Positions 17,986 to 20,872 of a DNA stretch of 64,000 nt are shown in pieces. Each line of letters begins with the position of its first letter. The stretch's first letter is position 1. This stretch comes from a virus: the IMG/VR virus record IMGVR_UViG_3300042509_002293, positions 32,080 to 96,079 of that record; one strand, 5' to 3'. The translations under genes and the position numbers were made by a program. The notes under the pieces were generated by a model. The model worked only from the letters and a program-made list of their open reading frames with translations, was not told the origin of the DNA and made no database searches.

Positions 17986-18203
17986 GAGACCACGACCGCA
18001 ACGTCCGCCGTGTCGCCGAGTGGTTCGCGCTCGCCGTGTTCGTCGCCCTCCCCGTGGCGTCACTCTTCGGCGACGAAGGGCTCAAGGCGTTCACGGTCGC
18101 AGCGGCGGCCACCAGCATTGTCGCCGTGTCGCCGATCTTCTACGAACTCATGGAACTGACGATCGAAACCTCGACTAGAAAGGAATCCGATGATCACGTT
18201 TGA
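17982..18203 (+). CDS. Small membrane protein
   Basis: Two hydrophobic segments; ATGA coupling. Confidence 0.55.
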   Translation: MRDHDRNVRRVAEWFALAVFVALPVASLFGDEGLKAFTVAAAATSIVAVSPIFYELMELTIETSTRKESDDHV

Positions 18204-18501
18204 CGAACTCGTCGACCTCGTGGAGCGGTGGGCGAGCGACCGGAGGATCGTTCCGAACAGCACCCCCCAGGCCCAGCTTCTCAAGACAGTGAGCGAACTC
18301 GGGGAACTCTCCGACGCGACGCTCAAGGGAGACGAGGCCGAGGTCGTCGACGGAGTCGGGGACGTGCTCGTGACTCTGATCATCTACGCGAAGCTCCAGG
18401 GGCTCGACCTCACCCACTGCCTGAACTCCGCCTACCAGACGATCCGCAACCGGCGGGGCACGCTCACGCCCGAGGGCGTGTTCGTGAAGGAGGGGGCGTG
18501 A
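18190..18501 (+). CDS. mazG: MazG-like nucleotide pyrophosphohydrolase
   Basis: QLLKTVSELGEL...DGVGDVLVTL...AYQTIRNRRG. Confidence 0.85.
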   Translation: MITFDELVDLVERWASDRRIVPNSTPQAQLLKTVSELGELSDATLKGDEAEVVDGVGDVLVTLIIYAKLQGLDLTHCLNSAYQTIRNRRGTLTPEGVFVKEGA

Positions 18502-19085
18502 GGAAGATCATCTCGCTCTTCCAGCGAAACTACGGCGGCGACCATCTCGTTCGGGGCGAGGTCGTGCCCGGGGCCGAGTGGGTGATTGCCGGAGAGGGCA
18601 CCCCGACGCGAAAGTACGACGGGACGTGCTGCCTCATCAGGGACGGCAGGCTCTACAGGCGGTTCGACGCCAAGCGGGGGAAGTCGCCTCCCGGTGGGTT
18701 CATTCCGGCCCAGGACCCGGACCCCGTGACCGGGCACTGGCCCGGATGGTTGCTCGTCGACTTCGACAACCCGGCCGACCGCTGGCATGCCGTGGCATCG
18801 ATTGGACGCTCGCTCGTCGGCATGGACGGGACCTGGGAACTGTGCGGACCCAAGATCAACGGCAACCCGGAGGGTCTCCTCGAACACCAACTGCTCCGGC
18901 ACGGATACCCGCTAGACGACTGCGACGCGAGGGACTACCTGTCCATCCGGGACTACCTCTCAGGCAAGGACATCGAGGGCATCGTCTGGCATCACCCGGA
19001 CGGCCGCATGGTGAAGATCAAGAAGCGGGACTTCGGGCTTGACCGTAATACGGATACGAGTACACTCTCGGCCGCTGTCCCGTAG
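18498..19085 (+). CDS. ATP-dependent RNA ligase (DUF5565/RLIG1-like nucleotidyltransferase)
   Basis: Motif I RKYDGT, HWPGW, ELCGPKINGNP, motif IV EGIVW, motif V KIK. Confidence 0.78.
   Translation: MRKIISLFQRNYGGDHLVRGEVVPGAEWVIAGEGTPTRKYDGTCCLIRDGRLYRRFDAKRGKSPPGGFIPAQDPDPVTGHWPGWLLVDFDNPADRWHAVASIGRSLVGMDGTWELCGPKINGNPEGLLEHQLLRHGYPLDDCDARDYLSIRDYLSGKDIEGIVWHHPDGRMVKIKKRDFGLDRNTDTSTLSAAVP
19039..19066 (+). promoter_or_regulatory. Sigma70-like promoter for the ncRNA array/Ro60
   Basis: TTGACC-16-TACACT, ~12 nt before RNA unit 1; spacer contains the ACGGATAC motif. Confidence 0.6.
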
Positions 19086-19145
19086 TGAAGAGCGCGGTTA
19101 CTCCACAATTGCTAGGAAAGAACACCGCACTCGCTTGTTCTCGGG
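19079..19145 (+). ncRNA. Y-RNA-like unit 1 (minimal)
   Basis: CCCG-U-AG/CU-CGGG bulged basal helix, GAGCGCGGT/ACCGCACTC upper stem; shares motifs with units 2-4. Confidence 0.6.
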
Positions 19146-19161
19146 CGATAAATCAATCCAC

Positions 19162-19260
19162 AGGCGTAGTGATATGGGTCGGCTACTTCATGGATGAACG
19201 ATCGGCCTCGTGCTGATTGGCCGGTTCGAGCCCGGCATCCGCCCCAGCCCGTTCTCGCCT
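19162..19260 (+). ncRNA. Y-RNA-like unit 2 (T-arm containing)
   Basis: AGGCG-U-AG/CU-CGCCU basal helix, CGGCTACTTC, T-arm GCCGG-TTCGAGC-CCGGC. Confidence 0.7.
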
Positions 19261-19267
19261 CTCGATA

Positions 19268-19394
19268 CAGGGACGTAGTGTTGTTCGCGGCTACTTCAAG
19301 TGGACGCAAGTTCGAGTCTTGCCGCCTGGGGCTGCGCTGCCTTCGGCGACGCCGGTGCTGGCTCCCGGCACCGCGAGCAGTTGTTCTCGCCCTG
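19268..19394 (+). ncRNA. Y-RNA-like unit 3 (T-arm containing)
   Basis: CAGGG..CG-U-AG/CU-CG-CCCUG, TTGTTCGCGG/CCGCGAGCAG stem, T-arm GCAAG-TTCGAGT-CTTGC. Confidence 0.7.
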
Positions 19395-19403
19395 ACAATC
19401 CTC

Positions 19404-19541
19404 GGCTGTAGTGAAGAGGTCGGCTACTTCTTTTAGGAAGACGAGACGCCGGTTCGACTCCGGCCCCCTCCACTGCAAAGGCCCCGGAGGGGTAGCTCAA
19501 CGGTAGAGCGCGATACGTTCCGTCCTCGCCTGTTCTCGGCC
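19404..19541 (+). ncRNA. YrlA-like Y RNA, unit 4, with circularly permuted tRNA domain
   Basis: T-arm 19448-19464, then acceptor strands CCCCTCC (19465-71)/GGAGGGG (19486-92) closed by a loop, then D-arm TA-GCTC-AACGGTA-GAGC; adjacent to Ro60. Confidence 0.82.
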
Positions 19542-19573
19542 TTGGTTTTCCTCCAGTCCAGAAAGGGATCCCG

Positions 19574-20872
19574 ATGAAGCTCAACGTCGCAGACTACTCC
19601 CGCCAGACGACCCACGAGGGCGGGCCAGCCAAGCGGATCTCGCCCGAGCAGGAACTCCGTCGGAGCGTCCTCTCGTGCCTCTTGTGGGAGAAGCAGTTCT
19701 ACGAGGACGGCCAGGACATCGCCGATCGCATCGAGAGTCTCTGCGAGAAGGTCGATCCCAGCGTGATCGCGGCCCTCGCTGTCGAGGCCAGGACGGCATT
19801 CCACCTCCGGCATGTTCCGCTCCTCCTGGCGTCGTGCCTCGCCAAGCGGGGCGGAGGACGTCTCGTGGCCGACACGGTCGAGGCCGTGGTCCAGCGTGCA
19901 GACGAGTTGGCCGAGATCCTCGCCGTCTACTGGCGGAACGGCCGGTGCCCGATCTCGAACGGCCTGAAGAAGGGCCTCGCCCTCGCGTTCACGAAGTTCT
20001 CGCCGTACCAACTGGCAAAGTACAACCGAGACGGAGCGATCAAGCTCCGGGACGTCCTGTTCCTCGTCCACGCCAAGCCCAAGGACGCCGATCAGGCGGA
20101 GACCTGGAAGAAGCTCGTCGACGGCACCCTTGAGTCTCCCGATACCTGGGAGGTCTCGCTCTCCGCCGGTGCCGGCAAGCGTGAGACGTTCGAGAGGCTC
20201 ATCCGAGAGGGGAAGCTCGGCTATCTCGCCCTCCTGCGGAACCTCCGCAATATGGCCGAGGCCGGGGTCGACTCCTCGGCGGTCAAGAATGCGATCCTCT
20301 GCCGTGCCGGCGCCGGCCGGGTGCTGCCGTTCCGCTACGTTGCGGCGGCGAGGGCCTGCCCGCAGTACGAGACGACGCTCGACATCGCCCTGCTTGCGGC
20401 CATCTCGGAACTGCCGGCCCTGCCGGGCAAGACGCTCGTGCTCGTCGACATCTCCGGGAGCATGGACTCCGCATTGTCTGGAAAGAGTGACCTGAGGCGG
20501 ATCGACGCGGCGGCCGCCCTGGCGAGCATCATTCCCGGGGACGTGCGGGTCTTCTCGTTCACCGACGCAGTCAAGGAGGTCCCGCCCAGGCGGGGCATGG
20601 CGGGGGTCGACGCGATCCTCTCGTCTCAGCCCCACGGCGGGACGTACCTTGGCCATGCCGTGAAGGCGATGAATGCGATCGAGCACGACCGGCTCGTGGT
20701 CATCACCGACGAGCAGTCGGCGGACTCCGTCCCGGACCCGCTCGCGAAGCATGCCTACATGATCAACGTGGCCTCGCACCGCAACGGTGTCGGCTACGGA
20801 CGCTGGACCCACCTCGACGGATTCTCCGAGAACGTCATCCGCTTCATCGCAGAGAGCGAGGCGGGCCGATGA
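19574..20872 (+). CDS. rsr: Ro60/TROVE-domain RNA-binding protein
   Basis: TROVE motifs (FYE, RADEL, YQLAKY, LRDVLFLVHAKP, TWEV.LS, ALLRNLRN, RVLPFRY) and vWA motifs (VDISGSM, GGT, ITDEQ). Confidence 0.93.
   Translation: MKLNVADYSRQTTHEGGPAKRISPEQELRRSVLSCLLWEKQFYEDGQDIADRIESLCEKVDPSVIAALAVEARTAFHLRHVPLLLASCLAKRGGGRLVADTVEAVVQRADELAEILAVYWRNGRCPISNGLKKGLALAFTKFSPYQLAKYNRDGAIKLRDVLFLVHAKPKDADQAETWKKLVDGTLESPDTWEVSLSAGAGKRETFERLIREGKLGYLALLRNLRNMAEAGVDSSAVKNAILCRAGAGRVLPFRYVAAARACPQYETTLDIALLAAISELPALPGKTLVLVDISGSMDSALSGKSDLRRIDAAAALASIIPGDVRVFSFTDAVKEVPPRRGMAGVDAILSSQPHGGTYLGHAVKAMNAIEHDRLVVITDEQSADSVPDPLAKHAYMINVASHRNGVGYGRWTHLDGFSENVIRFIAESEAGR

What the first reader, a model, noticed from the sequence alone, without database searches (positions are those of the whole stretch)
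18498..20872. Phage RNA module: ATP-dependent RNA ligase + tandem array of four Y-RNA-like ncRNAs + Ro60
Seen: a KxDG-type ligase gene, ~490 nt without a credible ORF that holds four related structured units, then a complete TROVE+vWA gene; a promoter (19039-19066) sits just before unit 1. Known: bacterial Ro60 (Rsr) is encoded beside Y RNAs, often with the RtcB ligase, and some phages carry Rsr plus YrlA. Unusual here: the neighbouring ligase looks DUF5565/RLIG1-like (5'-P/3'-OH) rather than RtcB, and there are four RNAs with a shared scaffold but different apical domains. Inference: a phage RNA-repair or decoy system in which Ro60 loads interchangeable RNA adaptors, possibly countering host tRNA-cleaving defences.
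Basis: partly seen in the sequence, partly recalled or inferred. Interest (0 to 1): 0.92.

Follow-up and report, generated by a model that had tools for sequence, protein, structure and literature searches.

The report
Phage Ro60 with four Y RNAs
A 96-kb phage carries a Ro60-type RNA-binding protein gene preceded by four tandem Y-RNA-like genes, a layout that turns out to be standard for hundreds of related phages, while the RLIG1-type RNA ligase next door is real but only rarely linked to it.

Summary
An RLIG1-family ligase gene lies at 18498-19085, four structured RNA units at 19076-19543, and a TROVE+vWA (Ro60) gene at 19574-20872.

The four units share a covarying two-helix scaffold with a variant of the bacterial Y RNA motif GNCGAA and a conserved UUACUUC. 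Unit 4 has the complete YrlA-type tRNA mimic.

A covariance model built from such units hit only the plus strand. All but a few hits lay just upstream of TROVE genes, in every one of about 95 related phage loci that had upstream DNA (1-8 units each). It found nothing significant in 500 kb of ligase-only loci. So the Ro60 plus Y-array module is a widespread, self-contained phage unit, and four units is typical, not unusual.

The ligase identity is solid (Pfam, PDB 9c6l, a fold model, and the catalytic Lys and Glu residues). Its link to Ro60 is not conserved:
- 0 of 79 other ligase contigs carry TROVE.
- Only 1 of about 95 other TROVE loci has the ligase nearby.
- The closest relative has a different gene in that slot.

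Phage Ro60 with upstream Y RNAs is already published, so this is a new variant of a known kind. An integrated repair or decoy system remains possible but unsupported.

The parts
18498..19085 (+). RLIG1-family ATP-dependent 5'-P/3'-OH RNA ligase, minimal 195-aa phage form. It is a neighbour of the Ro60 module, not a conserved part of it.
   Evidence: Pfam PF17720 6e-11. phrog_14301 2.8e-71 over its full length. PDB 9c6l Yasminevirus RLIG1 1.6e-16, with the catalytic Lys aligned to the K73M mutant site of 9c6m. AF2 model pLDDT 92.7, best fold match 9c6l/9c6m with TM 0.75-0.77. K39, D41, G42, E114, E160 and K173 are invariant in 57 homologs.
19039..19066 (+). Sigma-70-like promoter (TTGACC, 16-nt spacer, TACACT) about 10 nt upstream of unit 1, inside the 3' end of the ligase ORF.
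   Evidence: 1 site found, 0.2 expected. The homologous TTGCAC...TACATT element is kept in L096, where it is intergenic.
19076..19148 (+). Y RNA-like unit 1 (73 nt). Scaffold only, with a small apical loop, like the short YrlB type.
   Evidence: R1 49.7 bits. The MFE fold gives P1, the bulged U and P2.
19160..19262 (+). Y RNA-like unit 2 (103 nt). Scaffold plus an apical domain with a T-arm-like hairpin at 19220-19236.
   Evidence: R1 57.3 bits. T-arm GCCGG[UUCGAGC]CCGGC.
19268..19394 (+). Y RNA-like unit 3 (127 nt). Scaffold plus a T-arm-like hairpin (19306-19322) and two GC-rich hairpins.
   Evidence: R1 50.8 bits. Fold. T-arm GCAAG[UUCGAGU]CUUGC.
19402..19543 (+). Y RNA-like unit 4 (142 nt), a YrlA-type tRNA mimic. 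It has a small hairpin at 19427-19440, a T arm at 19448-19464, a closed 7-bp acceptor-like hairpin at 19465-19492 and a D arm at 19495-19509.
   Evidence: R1 71.4 bits. Rfam YrlA RF02553 partial match at 19445-19509, 32 bits, E 6.3e-05, below the gathering score of 69. Fold.
19574..20872 (+). Ro60-like protein (TROVE HEAT-repeat ring plus a vWA domain with a MIDAS motif), 432 aa.
   Evidence: Pfam TROVE 5.4e-14 and VWA_2. phrog_850 1.7e-51. Full-length match to Thermus phage phiLo Ro60, PDB 9KOP/9L5Y, 2.5e-30. The MIDAS residues D292, S294, S296, T378 and D379 are invariant.

Best explanation
This is a phage-encoded Ro60-Y RNA ribonucleoprotein module. A promoter at 19039-19066 drives one transcript that carries four tandem Y RNA-like units, followed without a terminator by the Ro60 (TROVE+vWA) mRNA.

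Each unit has the same protein-binding scaffold:
- a basal helix formed by its 5' and 3' ends, with a bulged U;
- an internal loop carrying G-(G/C)-Y-G-W-W, a variant of the bacterial Y RNA motif GNCGAA;
- a second helix;
- a nearly invariant UUACUUC.

Each unit also has a different apical module. Unit 4 is a complete permuted tRNA mimic of the YrlA type. Units 2 and 3 keep only a T-arm-like hairpin. Unit 1 is a bare stem.

Inferred by analogy: the precursor is cut into separate RNAs, as in M. smegmatis. Each RNA binds the phage Ro60 through the scaffold. The apical modules tether or gate Ro60 towards different host partners, such as PNPase or tRNA-recognising enzymes, as in the Deinococcus/Salmonella complexes and the phiLo Ro60-Yrl-PNPase complex. 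This would reshape host or phage RNA turnover during infection.

The RLIG1-type ligase immediately upstream is a genuine, apparently intact RNA-sealing enzyme. It is an independently mobile accessory gene sitting in a variable slot. It may cooperate with the module but is not an integral part of it.

Shown: the gene identities, the RNA scaffold and its covariation, the universal array-TROVE linkage and the sporadic ligase linkage. Inferred: RNA processing, binding to Ro60, the partners and the biological role.
For: RNA scaffold:
- All four units fold independently into the same two helices.
- Across 28 units from 8 phages, 88.9% of cells pair, against 45-57% when the partner columns are slid. 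15 of 16 pairs change on both sides.
- Across 45 units, 90.9% pair and 16 of 16 pairs change on both sides.
- P2 was not used to select the units and still pairs in 84-90% of cells.

Specificity of the RNA model:
- 45 hits, 215 hits and 12 hits, all on the TROVE strand. All lie just upstream of TROVE except five hits just downstream (L164, L173), one more than 2.5 kb upstream (L158) and arrays starting 1-1.5 kb upstream in L123 and L136.
- 0 significant hits in 500 kb of ligase-only loci.
- Exactly 4 hits, and no tRNA genes, in the whole 96-kb genome.

Protein and literature:
- The TROVE protein is a full-length homolog of phiLo Ro60, which was shown to bind two upstream Y-like RNAs and to assemble with host PNPase (PMC12135203).
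- Unit 4 has the published YrlA hallmarks: the 5' motif, YUAY, the T arm, the acceptor-like hairpin and the D arm (PMC4201824; Rfam alignment).
- M. smegmatis YrlA and YrlB are processed from one precursor upstream of rsr.

Ligase independence.
Against: - No expression, processing or binding data exist for this phage.
- The units fall below Rfam's YrlA gathering score. Only the tRNA-like core of unit 4 matches, at 32 bits against 69.
- The window's version of the 5' motif reads AGUGAAG or AGUGWW rather than GNCGAA.
- Units were first picked with a scanner that required part of P1 to pair, so the P1 statistics are partly circular. P2 and the 17 units that were not in the training set are free of this.
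- The ligase-array-TROVE order recurs in an otherwise unrelated phage (L038). This is more than chance co-occurrence would predict and hints at some functional tie that this explanation plays down.
Confidence: 0.72

Rival explanations
1. Integrated three-part RNA-repair or counter-defence system. Ro60 loads interchangeable Y RNA adaptors or decoys, and the RLIG1 ligase reseals tRNAs, or the Y RNAs themselves, after host nucleases cut them. The three parts would work as one unit.
For: - The genes are tightly packed on one strand, and unit 1 overlaps the last 10 nt of the ligase ORF.
- The same order, ligase, 3 Y units, TROVE, occurs in L038, whose flanking genes are unrelated to this phage.
- If the two genes were independent, about 0.03 contigs holding both would be expected from about 165 ligase and at least 581 TROVE stretches among 2.9 million contigs. 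This is my own rough calculation. At least 2 are seen.
- RLIG1 homologs, including phage ones, join tRNA halves cut in the anticodon loop (PMC11494293).
- Bacterial rsr and Y RNAs sit in operons with the RtcB ligase (PMC7790460). Jumbo-phage TROVE has been discussed as an RNA-repair platform (PMC7824862).
Against: - Linkage is seen in only 2 of about 96 TROVE loci and 2 of 81 ligase contigs.
- The closest relative, L096, keeps MazG, the promoter, the array and TROVE but has another gene in place of the ligase.
- The array has its own conserved promoter.
- The genome has no RtcB and no polynucleotide kinase or phosphatase to heal 5'-OH and cyclic-phosphate ends.
- L038's relatives also lack the ligase.
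- L038's array has no YrlA-type unit, so no common RNA substrate is evident.
Confidence: 0.18
2. The array is mainly a cis-acting leader of the Ro60 mRNA. The Y-like modules would be binding sites through which Ro60 autoregulates its own translation or stability, rather than genes for free trans-acting RNAs.
For: - The array sits directly upstream of the start codon, with no terminator-like site between unit 4 (which ends at 19543) and the ATG at 19574.
- This position is kept in nearly all loci.
Against: - In M. smegmatis, Y RNAs in the same position are processed from the precursor and accumulate bound to Rsr.
- The tRNA-like modules, with their diversified apical domains and up to 8 copies, are hard to explain as operators.
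- A few loci have units downstream of TROVE (L164, L173).
- The two roles are not mutually exclusive.
Confidence: 0.07
3. The units are decayed tRNA genes or a selfish tRNA-derived repeat, with no dedicated link to Ro60.
For: - T-arm, D-arm and acceptor-like elements are present.
- ARAGORN calls part of one homologous unit in phage Sopo a tRNA-Asn.
Against: - ARAGORN finds no tRNA in the window or the whole genome, nor in 10 related loci.
- The non-tRNA scaffold helices covary strongly.
- Units occur only next to TROVE genes and on the same strand.
Confidence: 0.02

Closest known systems
Thermus phage phiLo Ro60 with Yrl1 and Yrl2 (PDB 9KOP, 9L5Y; NAR 2025, PMC12135203)
   Same: Both are phage-encoded TROVE+vWA proteins, homologous over their full length (E 2.5e-30). 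In both, Y RNA-like genes lie immediately upstream on the same strand. In phiLo, binding to the RNAs and assembly with host PNPase were shown experimentally.
   Different: Here there are four units rather than two, and one carries a full tRNA-like domain. The protein is shorter (432 aa against about 500). The motif reads GYGWW rather than CGAA. An RLIG1 ligase lies next door; the phiLo paper mentions no ligase (0 occurrences).
Bacterial YrlA/YrlB Y RNAs with Rsr (Chen et al. 2014, PMC4201824; Rfam RF02553)
   Same: The RNAs lie next to Ro60 on the same strand. Both have a 5' motif of the GNCGAA type, YUAY, a T arm, a closed acceptor-like hairpin and a D arm. There are at least two Y RNAs per locus, one tRNA-like and one simple. 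They are made from one precursor upstream of rsr in M. smegmatis. The 7-bp acceptor-like stem of unit 4 resembles M. smegmatis YrlA, which is an RNase P substrate.
   Different: The units score below Rfam's gathering cut-off. The scaffold has its own strongly conserved features (bulged U, UUACUUC, UGUUCY). Arrays reach 4 units here and up to 8 in relatives. The published bacterial neighbour is RtcB, not an RLIG1-type ligase.
RLIG1 / C12orf29 RNA ligases, including the Yasminevirus enzyme (PDB 9c6l) and tested phage and bacterial homologs (PMC11494293)
   Same: The KxDG lysine, the two conserved glutamates and the C-terminal lysine are present. The predicted fold matches 9c6l. The family ligates 5'-P/3'-OH RNA ends, including tRNA anticodon-loop nicks.
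   Different: This is a minimal 195-aa form (human 325 aa, Yasminevirus 277 aa). It belongs to a phage family already annotated 'RNA ligase' in mycobacteriophages. Its activity has not been tested. Adjacency to Ro60 has not been reported in the papers I could search.
T4 Rnl1 plus Pnkp tRNA repair against the anticodon nuclease PrrC
   Same: Both are phage-encoded ATP-dependent RNA ligases that could reseal cleaved tRNA.
   Different: No kinase or phosphatase end-healing partner was found in this genome. The ligase could therefore act only on ends that already carry 5'-P and 3'-OH.

Membership tests
Ro60 / Rsr (TROVE + vWA) proteins | TROVE domain above Pfam's curated threshold | tested here: met
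   PF05731 scores 52.7 bits against a cut-off of 23. It is also above the cut-off in the genome search.
Ro60 / Rsr (TROVE + vWA) proteins | C-terminal vWA domain with a MIDAS motif (DxSxS...T...D) | tested here: met
   VWA_2 matches residues 287-380 at 25.8 bits, just under its cut-off of 27. D292, S294, S296, T378 and D379 are invariant in 10 homologs.
Ro60 / Rsr (TROVE + vWA) proteins | Full-length homology to a structurally solved Ro60 ring | tested here: met
   Residues 12-431 align to residues 22-485 of phiLo Ro60 (9L5Y; 23-486 of 9KOP), E 2.5e-30. No model of this protein itself was made.
Ro60 / Rsr (TROVE + vWA) proteins | Binds Y RNAs and misfolded RNAs | not testable with these tools
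   This needs EMSA or RIP experiments.
YrlA (Rfam RF02553) / bacterial Y RNAs | Score at or above Rfam's gathering threshold (69 bits) | tested here: not met
   There is no hit at gathering level. Unit 4 gives a partial 32-bit match to model positions 28-81 only. Units 1-3 give no YrlA match.
YrlA (Rfam RF02553) / bacterial Y RNAs | Encoded next to a Ro60 gene on the same strand | tested here: met
   every hit is on the TROVE strand, and all but a few are immediately upstream.
YrlA (Rfam RF02553) / bacterial Y RNAs | 5' motif GNCGAAN0-1G, the proposed Ro60 contact | tested here: inconclusive
   The family consensus is G-(G/C)-Y-G-W-W-(A)-G. 15 of 45 units have C at the third position, and G12 is invariant. 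The window's units read AGUGAAG, AGUGAUA and AGUGUUG, with a compensating U opposite the A.
YrlA (Rfam RF02553) / bacterial Y RNAs | tRNA-like domain: T arm, closed acceptor-like hairpin, D arm, YUAY | tested here: met
   Unit 4 meets this. Units 2 and 3 have the T arm only, and unit 1 has none, so they are not YrlA-type.
YrlA (Rfam RF02553) / bacterial Y RNAs | Stem formed by the 5' and 3' ends, supported by covariation | tested here: met
RLIG1 (PF17720) RNA ligases | Pfam score above the curated threshold | tested here: met
   42.2 bits against a cut-off of 25. Only profile positions 191-280 align. The N-terminal half is covered by the PDB match.
RLIG1 (PF17720) RNA ligases | Catalytic KxDG lysine and the conserved Glu residues of the active site | tested here: met
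   K39 aligns with the lysine that is mutated in 9c6m. K39, D41, G42, E114, E160 and K173 are invariant in 57 homologs.
RLIG1 (PF17720) RNA ligases | RLIG1 fold | tested here: met
   The AF2 model has pLDDT 92.7. The top 10 Foldseek hits are all 9c6l/9c6m, best E 2.7e-13 and TM 0.75-0.77. The next hits are NgrRnl and T4 Rnl1 at E above 0.03.
RLIG1 (PF17720) RNA ligases | ATP-dependent joining of 5'-P and 3'-OH RNA ends | not testable with these tools
   This needs an enzyme assay.
Ro60-ligase RNA repair operon (rsr-yrl-rtcBA type) | Conserved co-occurrence of the ligase with Ro60 and Y RNAs across relatives | tested here: not met
   Only the window and L038 show the combination.

The most novel reading that the evidence does not exclude
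The Y array is a set of interchangeable tRNA-shaped baits held on Ro60. In the rare phages that also carry the RLIG1 ligase, the ligase acts on these RNAs or on host tRNAs presented by them. It might reseal nicks left by metal-dependent tRNA-cutting defences, or by RNase P cleavage of the 7-bp acceptor-like hairpin of unit 4. It might also circularise processed units whose 5'-P and 3'-OH ends are brought together by the basal stem.

One supporting hint comes from relatives. In 20 YrlA-type units of other phages, the hairpin at the anticodon-arm position has a 4- or 5-bp stem (5 bp in 18) and a 7-nt loop of the anticodon-loop pattern YU-NNN-RN; in 18 of the 20 it reads CU-NNN-AA (e.g. GUU, UGU, UUU, GCU). 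This would suit decoys for anticodon nucleases.
Probability: 0.1. Interest if true: 0.85.

Novelty: new variant of a known kind. Interest (0 to 1): 0.5.

Why it matters
Ro60 and Y RNAs are conserved from bacteria to humans, yet what the variable parts of Y RNAs do is still largely open.

This analysis shows that one phage Ro60 clade, found on at least 581 viral contigs, always comes with a promoter-driven tandem array of 1-8 Y-like RNAs. The RNAs share one covarying scaffold and carry diversified heads, ranging from bare stems to full four-arm tRNA mimics. This is a natural library of adaptors on a single protein platform.

It occurs in cultivable phages of Xanthomonas, Caulobacter and Brevundimonas, so the function of the heads can be tested directly.

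The analysis also supplies a covariance model that finds Y RNAs missed by Rfam's YrlA model. It flags at least one case where a Y unit is detected by ARAGORN as a tRNA.

The RLIG1 neighbour is a lead, not a finding. It recurs in two unrelated phages but is absent from nearly all others.

Tried and rejected
- Rfam at gathering thresholds gave nothing.
- Folding the whole 536-nt region at once was uninformative (z = 0.88). Unit-by-unit folding was needed.
- The single-sequence AF2 model of the ligase was useless (pLDDT 39) and was replaced by an alignment-based model.
- The TROVE tree (13 rows) left the window unresolved, with L038 on a long, compositionally odd branch.
- The ligase tree (82 rows, quick search) had no supported clade joining or separating the window and L038. 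The AU test did not finish in time. So I cannot say whether the two ligase-array-TROVE cassettes share ancestry or arose twice.
- I considered a D-arm-like GUAG/CUAC hairpin and a GAAG/CUUC pairing inside the scaffold. Both were rejected because the varying columns do not covary (column 13 is A or U, while column 29 stays U).
It folds as a 4-bp stem with a 6-nt loop. It is, however, positionally homologous to true 7-nt loops in other phages.
- The DUF3310 ORF that PHROGs labels 'nucleotide kinase' is not a polynucleotide kinase by Pfam.
- I looked for the Burroughs and Aravind 2016 RNA-repair survey. It is not held.


Full report
**Setting.** The window is bases 32080-96079 of a 96,079-bp IMG/VR virus record that is estimated to be 98% complete. 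GC content is about 64%. Neither the window nor the whole genome contains a tRNA or tmRNA gene.

- A MazG-like ORF lies at 18190-18501 (Pfam MazG, phrog_1992).
- A 195-aa ORF at 18498-19085 starts at a GTG that overlaps the MazG stop.
- A stretch at 19086-19573 has no credible ORF.
- A 432-aa ORF lies at 19574-20872.

The scan found one promoter-like site in 3.5 kb, TTGACC-16-TACACT at 19039-19066, with 0.2 expected. It found no terminator-like site. Direct-repeat analysis shows four copies of a 3' block ending in GTTCTCG, and three to four copies of 5' blocks containing GTAGTG and GG(C/T)TACT(T/C)C.

**The RNA units.**
- Folded one at a time and without constraints, each of the four units (19076-19148, 19160-19262, 19268-19394, 19402-19543) gives the same architecture. 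The 5' and 3' ends form a basal helix (P1) with a bulged U two pairs from its top. An asymmetric internal loop follows, and then a second helix (P2) of 8-9 pairs. After P2 come UUAC/CUAC-UYC and a variable apical domain.
- The helix sequences differ between units while the pairing is kept. For example, the basal stem reads CCCG/CGGG in one unit, AGGCG/CGCCU in another and GGCUG/CGGCC in a third.
- Spacers between the units are only 5-11 nt.
- Unit 1 starts 10 nt before the ligase stop codon, and that TAG lies within unit 1's GUAGUG.

**Evidence from other genomes.**
- The TROVE gene has relatives in cultured phages of Xanthomonas, Xylella, Brevundimonas and Caulobacter, among others. Those records show unannotated gaps of 0.7-1 kb upstream of the gene.
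- A simple descriptor scan found units of the same design in those gaps and in IMG/VR relatives.
- On a MAFFT alignment of 28 units from 8 phages, the two-helix structure pairs in 88.9% of cells. The figure is 45-57% when the 3' partners are slid by 1-3 columns. 15 of 16 pairs show changes on both sides, and the covariation score is 0.67 against 0.14-0.18.
- The unit picker required at least four consecutive P1 pairs, so the P1 result is partly circular. P2 was not used for picking and pairs in 83.7% of cells, with all eight pairs changing on both sides.
- A covariance model, R1, then found 45 units in 13 sources, 17 of them not in the training set. All were on the TROVE strand and directly upstream of it, and exactly four were in the 64-kb window. 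On that model-based alignment, 90.9% of cells pair and 16 of 16 pairs covary.
- As a negative control, 80 ligase-only loci (500 kb, both strands) gave nothing better than 16.8 bits, E = 0.11.

**How common are such arrays?**
- A profile-based scan showed at least 581 viral contigs encoding this TROVE clade.
- In the best 76 new loci, R1 found 215 units at E <= 0.001, all on the TROVE strand. All but a few lay immediately upstream of TROVE. The exceptions are two units downstream of the gene in L164, one unit more than 2.5 kb upstream in L158, and arrays that begin 1-1.5 kb upstream in L123 and L136.
- By my count from that table, 74 of the 76 loci have at least one unit. The two without a unit have no upstream DNA in the contig. 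Loci hold 1-8 units, most often 2-4. Caulobacter phages CcrColossus and CcrPW have 8 each.
- Seven relatives of L038 also have units.
- The four-unit array is therefore real, but it is the normal state of this clade rather than an oddity of this phage.

**What kind of RNA is it?**
- The conserved columns across 45 units give this consensus: P1, U (bulge, 39 of 45), R-S, Y, G (45 of 45), W, W, P2 (ending C-G-G), then U-U-A-C-U-U-C (U25, C30 invariant; C27 in 44 of 45 units). On the 3' side the consensus is G-Y-Y-U-G-U-U, then P1.
- The 5' block G-(G/C)-Y-G-W-W-(A)-G is a relaxed form of GNCGAAN0-1G, the motif that Chen et al. proposed as the Rsr contact in bacterial Y RNAs. UUAC matches their conserved YUAY (PMC4201824).
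- Unit 4 adds a T arm (GCCGG-UUCGACU-CCGGC), a closed 7-bp acceptor-like hairpin (CCCCUCC/GGAGGGG), then UA and a D arm (GCUC-AACGGUA-GAGC). This is the YrlA topology.
- Rfam's YrlA model aligns to exactly this core at 32 bits, E 6.3e-05. That is well below its gathering score of 69, because the flanking stems differ.
- Units 2 and 3 keep only T-arm-like hairpins, and unit 1 has none.
- Across 192 units from about 85 loci, 63 have both T- and D-arm signatures (median 136 nt), 43 have a T arm only, 8 have a D arm only and 78 have neither (median 70 nt). This mirrors the published pattern of one tRNA-like Y RNA plus simpler ones at each locus.

**The proteins.**
- The 432-aa protein is Ro60-like. 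It matches the TROVE domain above threshold and a vWA domain, and phrog_850.
- It aligns over its full length to Thermus phage phiLo Ro60 (9KOP/9L5Y, E 2.5e-30). Its MIDAS residues are invariant.
- The phiLo protein is a ring. It binds two Y-like RNAs encoded just upstream of its gene and forms complexes with host PNPase (PMC12135203).
- The 195-aa protein belongs to the RLIG1 family. It matches Pfam PF17720 and the Yasminevirus RLIG1 structure 9c6l at 1.6e-16, with its KYDG lysine aligned to the residue mutated in 9c6m.
- It also matches phrog_14301 over its full length, and K39, D41, G42, E114, E160 and K173 are invariant in 57 homologs. An AF2 model (pLDDT 92.7) has as its only strong structural matches 9c6l and 9c6m (TM 0.75-0.77).
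- RLIG1 enzymes, including bacterial and phage homologs, join 5'-P/3'-OH ends and can seal tRNA halves cut in the anticodon loop (PMC11494293).
- The same small ligase is already annotated 'RNA ligase' in mycobacteriophages and in jumbo phages of Ralstonia and Burkholderia.

**Is the ligase part of the Ro60 module?** The evidence is mostly against it.
- Of 80 ligase loci, only L038 has TROVE within 3 kb. Whole-contig searches found TROVE in 0 of 79 other ligase contigs, 28 of which are at least 90% complete.
- Of 12 other TROVE phages, only L038's contig has the ligase. The ligase is missing from four complete IMG/VR genomes and from the cultured phages Sopo and Marchewka.
- None of the 76 further TROVE loci, and none of L038's seven relatives, has the ligase within 3 kb.
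- Among cultured phage records, the organisms carrying the ligase and those carrying TROVE barely overlap.
- L096, the closest relative (TROVE 78% and MazG 71-74% identical; syntenic HDAC-like and DUF3310 genes), keeps MazG, the promoter, the array and TROVE. Between MazG and the promoter, however, it has an unrelated 112-aa ORF. The ligase therefore occupies a variable accessory slot.
- The genome has no RtcB and no recognisable polynucleotide kinase or phosphatase. The ligase could therefore only seal ends that already carry 5'-P and 3'-OH.

**What speaks for a link?**
- L038 repeats the order ligase, three Y units, TROVE. Its flanking genes show no similarity to this phage.
- With about 165 ligase and at least 581 TROVE stretches among 2.9 million contigs, independent assortment predicts about 0.03 contigs holding both. 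This is my own rough arithmetic, and it ignores contig length and shared host range. Two such contigs are seen, both adjacent and in the same order.
- The trees could not decide whether the two cassettes share ancestry.
- I therefore keep the integrated-system reading as a minority rival.

**Most likely mechanism.** One transcript from the conserved promoter carries four Y RNAs and the Ro60 mRNA.
- Host nucleases release the units. This is inferred from M. smegmatis, where YrlA and YrlB come from one precursor and RNase P cuts the YrlA with a 7-bp acceptor-like stem.
- Each RNA binds the phage Ro60 through the shared scaffold.
- The different heads direct the complex to different host factors, such as PNPase or tRNA-recognising enzymes, as in the known Ro60-Y RNA-PNPase machines.
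- The ligase is an RNA-repair accessory gene that may act in the same general arena, tRNA or structured-RNA integrity during infection, but it is not required by the module.

**Comparison with what is known, and novelty.**
- Phage Ro60 genes with nearby Y RNAs have been reported for 22 phages, including mycobacteriophages and CcrColossus. They have also been characterised biochemically for phiLo.
- TROVE in jumbo phages has been discussed as an RNA-repair platform alongside Rnl1, Rnl2 and RtcB ligases (PMC7824862).
- In the literature I could search, I did not find three things:
  - tandem arrays of up to 8 units as the rule for a large phage clade;
  - this particular conserved scaffold, which Rfam's YrlA model misses;
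  - any association of Ro60 with an RLIG1-type ligase.
- I rate this a new variant of a known kind, of moderate interest.

Noticed in passing
L002:2754-2770, L006:2853-2869, L011:2455-2471, L013:2853-2869 and about 30 more units in A2/A5: In 38 units overall (20 of YrlA type), the hairpin between UUAC and the T arm has a 4- to 6-bp stem and a 7-nt loop of anticodon-loop form (YU-NNN-RN, mostly CU-NNN-AA). It is often followed by a 5-nt AGGUC-like linker. These units therefore mimic all four tRNA arms. The most frequent 'anticodons' are GUU and UGU (6 each), then UGA, UUU, GCU and CUU. The window's unit 4 has only a 4-bp stem and a 6-nt loop at this position.
   Followed up: partly
L002:2726-2796 (Xanthomonas phage Sopo): ARAGORN calls a tRNA-Asn(GUU), and Rfam's tRNA model scores 29.3 bits here. 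The sequence is in fact the 5' half of a Y RNA-like unit (R1 83.4 bits at 2724-2861). Phage 'tRNA' annotations next to TROVE genes may therefore be Y RNAs.
   Followed up: partly
L150:1722-2917 (Caulobacter phage CcrColossus) and L161:1726-2918 (CcrPW): Eight tandem Y RNA-like units lie upstream of the TROVE gene in each phage. These are the largest arrays seen.
   Followed up: no
L164:4343-4546 and L173:4399-4814: In these two loci, Y RNA-like units lie downstream of the TROVE gene rather than upstream, or in addition to upstream units.
   Followed up: no
L096:2270-2608: In the closest relative, a 112-aa ORF of unknown function sits where the window has the ligase. It starts at an ATG overlapping the MazG stop.
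   Followed up: partly
window:16476-17345: A phage ORF carries a histone-deacetylase-family domain (PF00850, 4e-31). It is syntenic in L096.
   Followed up: no
window:17425-17985: This is a DUF3310 protein (PF11753, 1.2e-13). PHROGs labels the family 'nucleotide kinase'. It is not a recognisable polynucleotide kinase.
   Followed up: no
window:23612-24985: A 457-aa ORF matches phrog_249 ('porphyrin biosynthesis', 1.5e-51) and has a weak P-loop match. It is probably a CobS/AAA-type ATPase.
   Followed up: no
L003:6586-7006 (Brevundimonas phage Marchewka): A tRNA-Cys, and next to it a permuted-tmRNA-like element (RF04321, 57.2 bits, above the gathering score of 47), lie about 2.3 kb downstream of the TROVE gene.
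   Followed up: no
L002:190-305 (Xanthomonas phage Sopo): A near-perfect 35-bp inverted repeat around a 43-nt loop gives spurious microRNA-family hits on both strands. It lies at the end of the 'primosomal protein' gene and in the gap after it.
   Followed up: no
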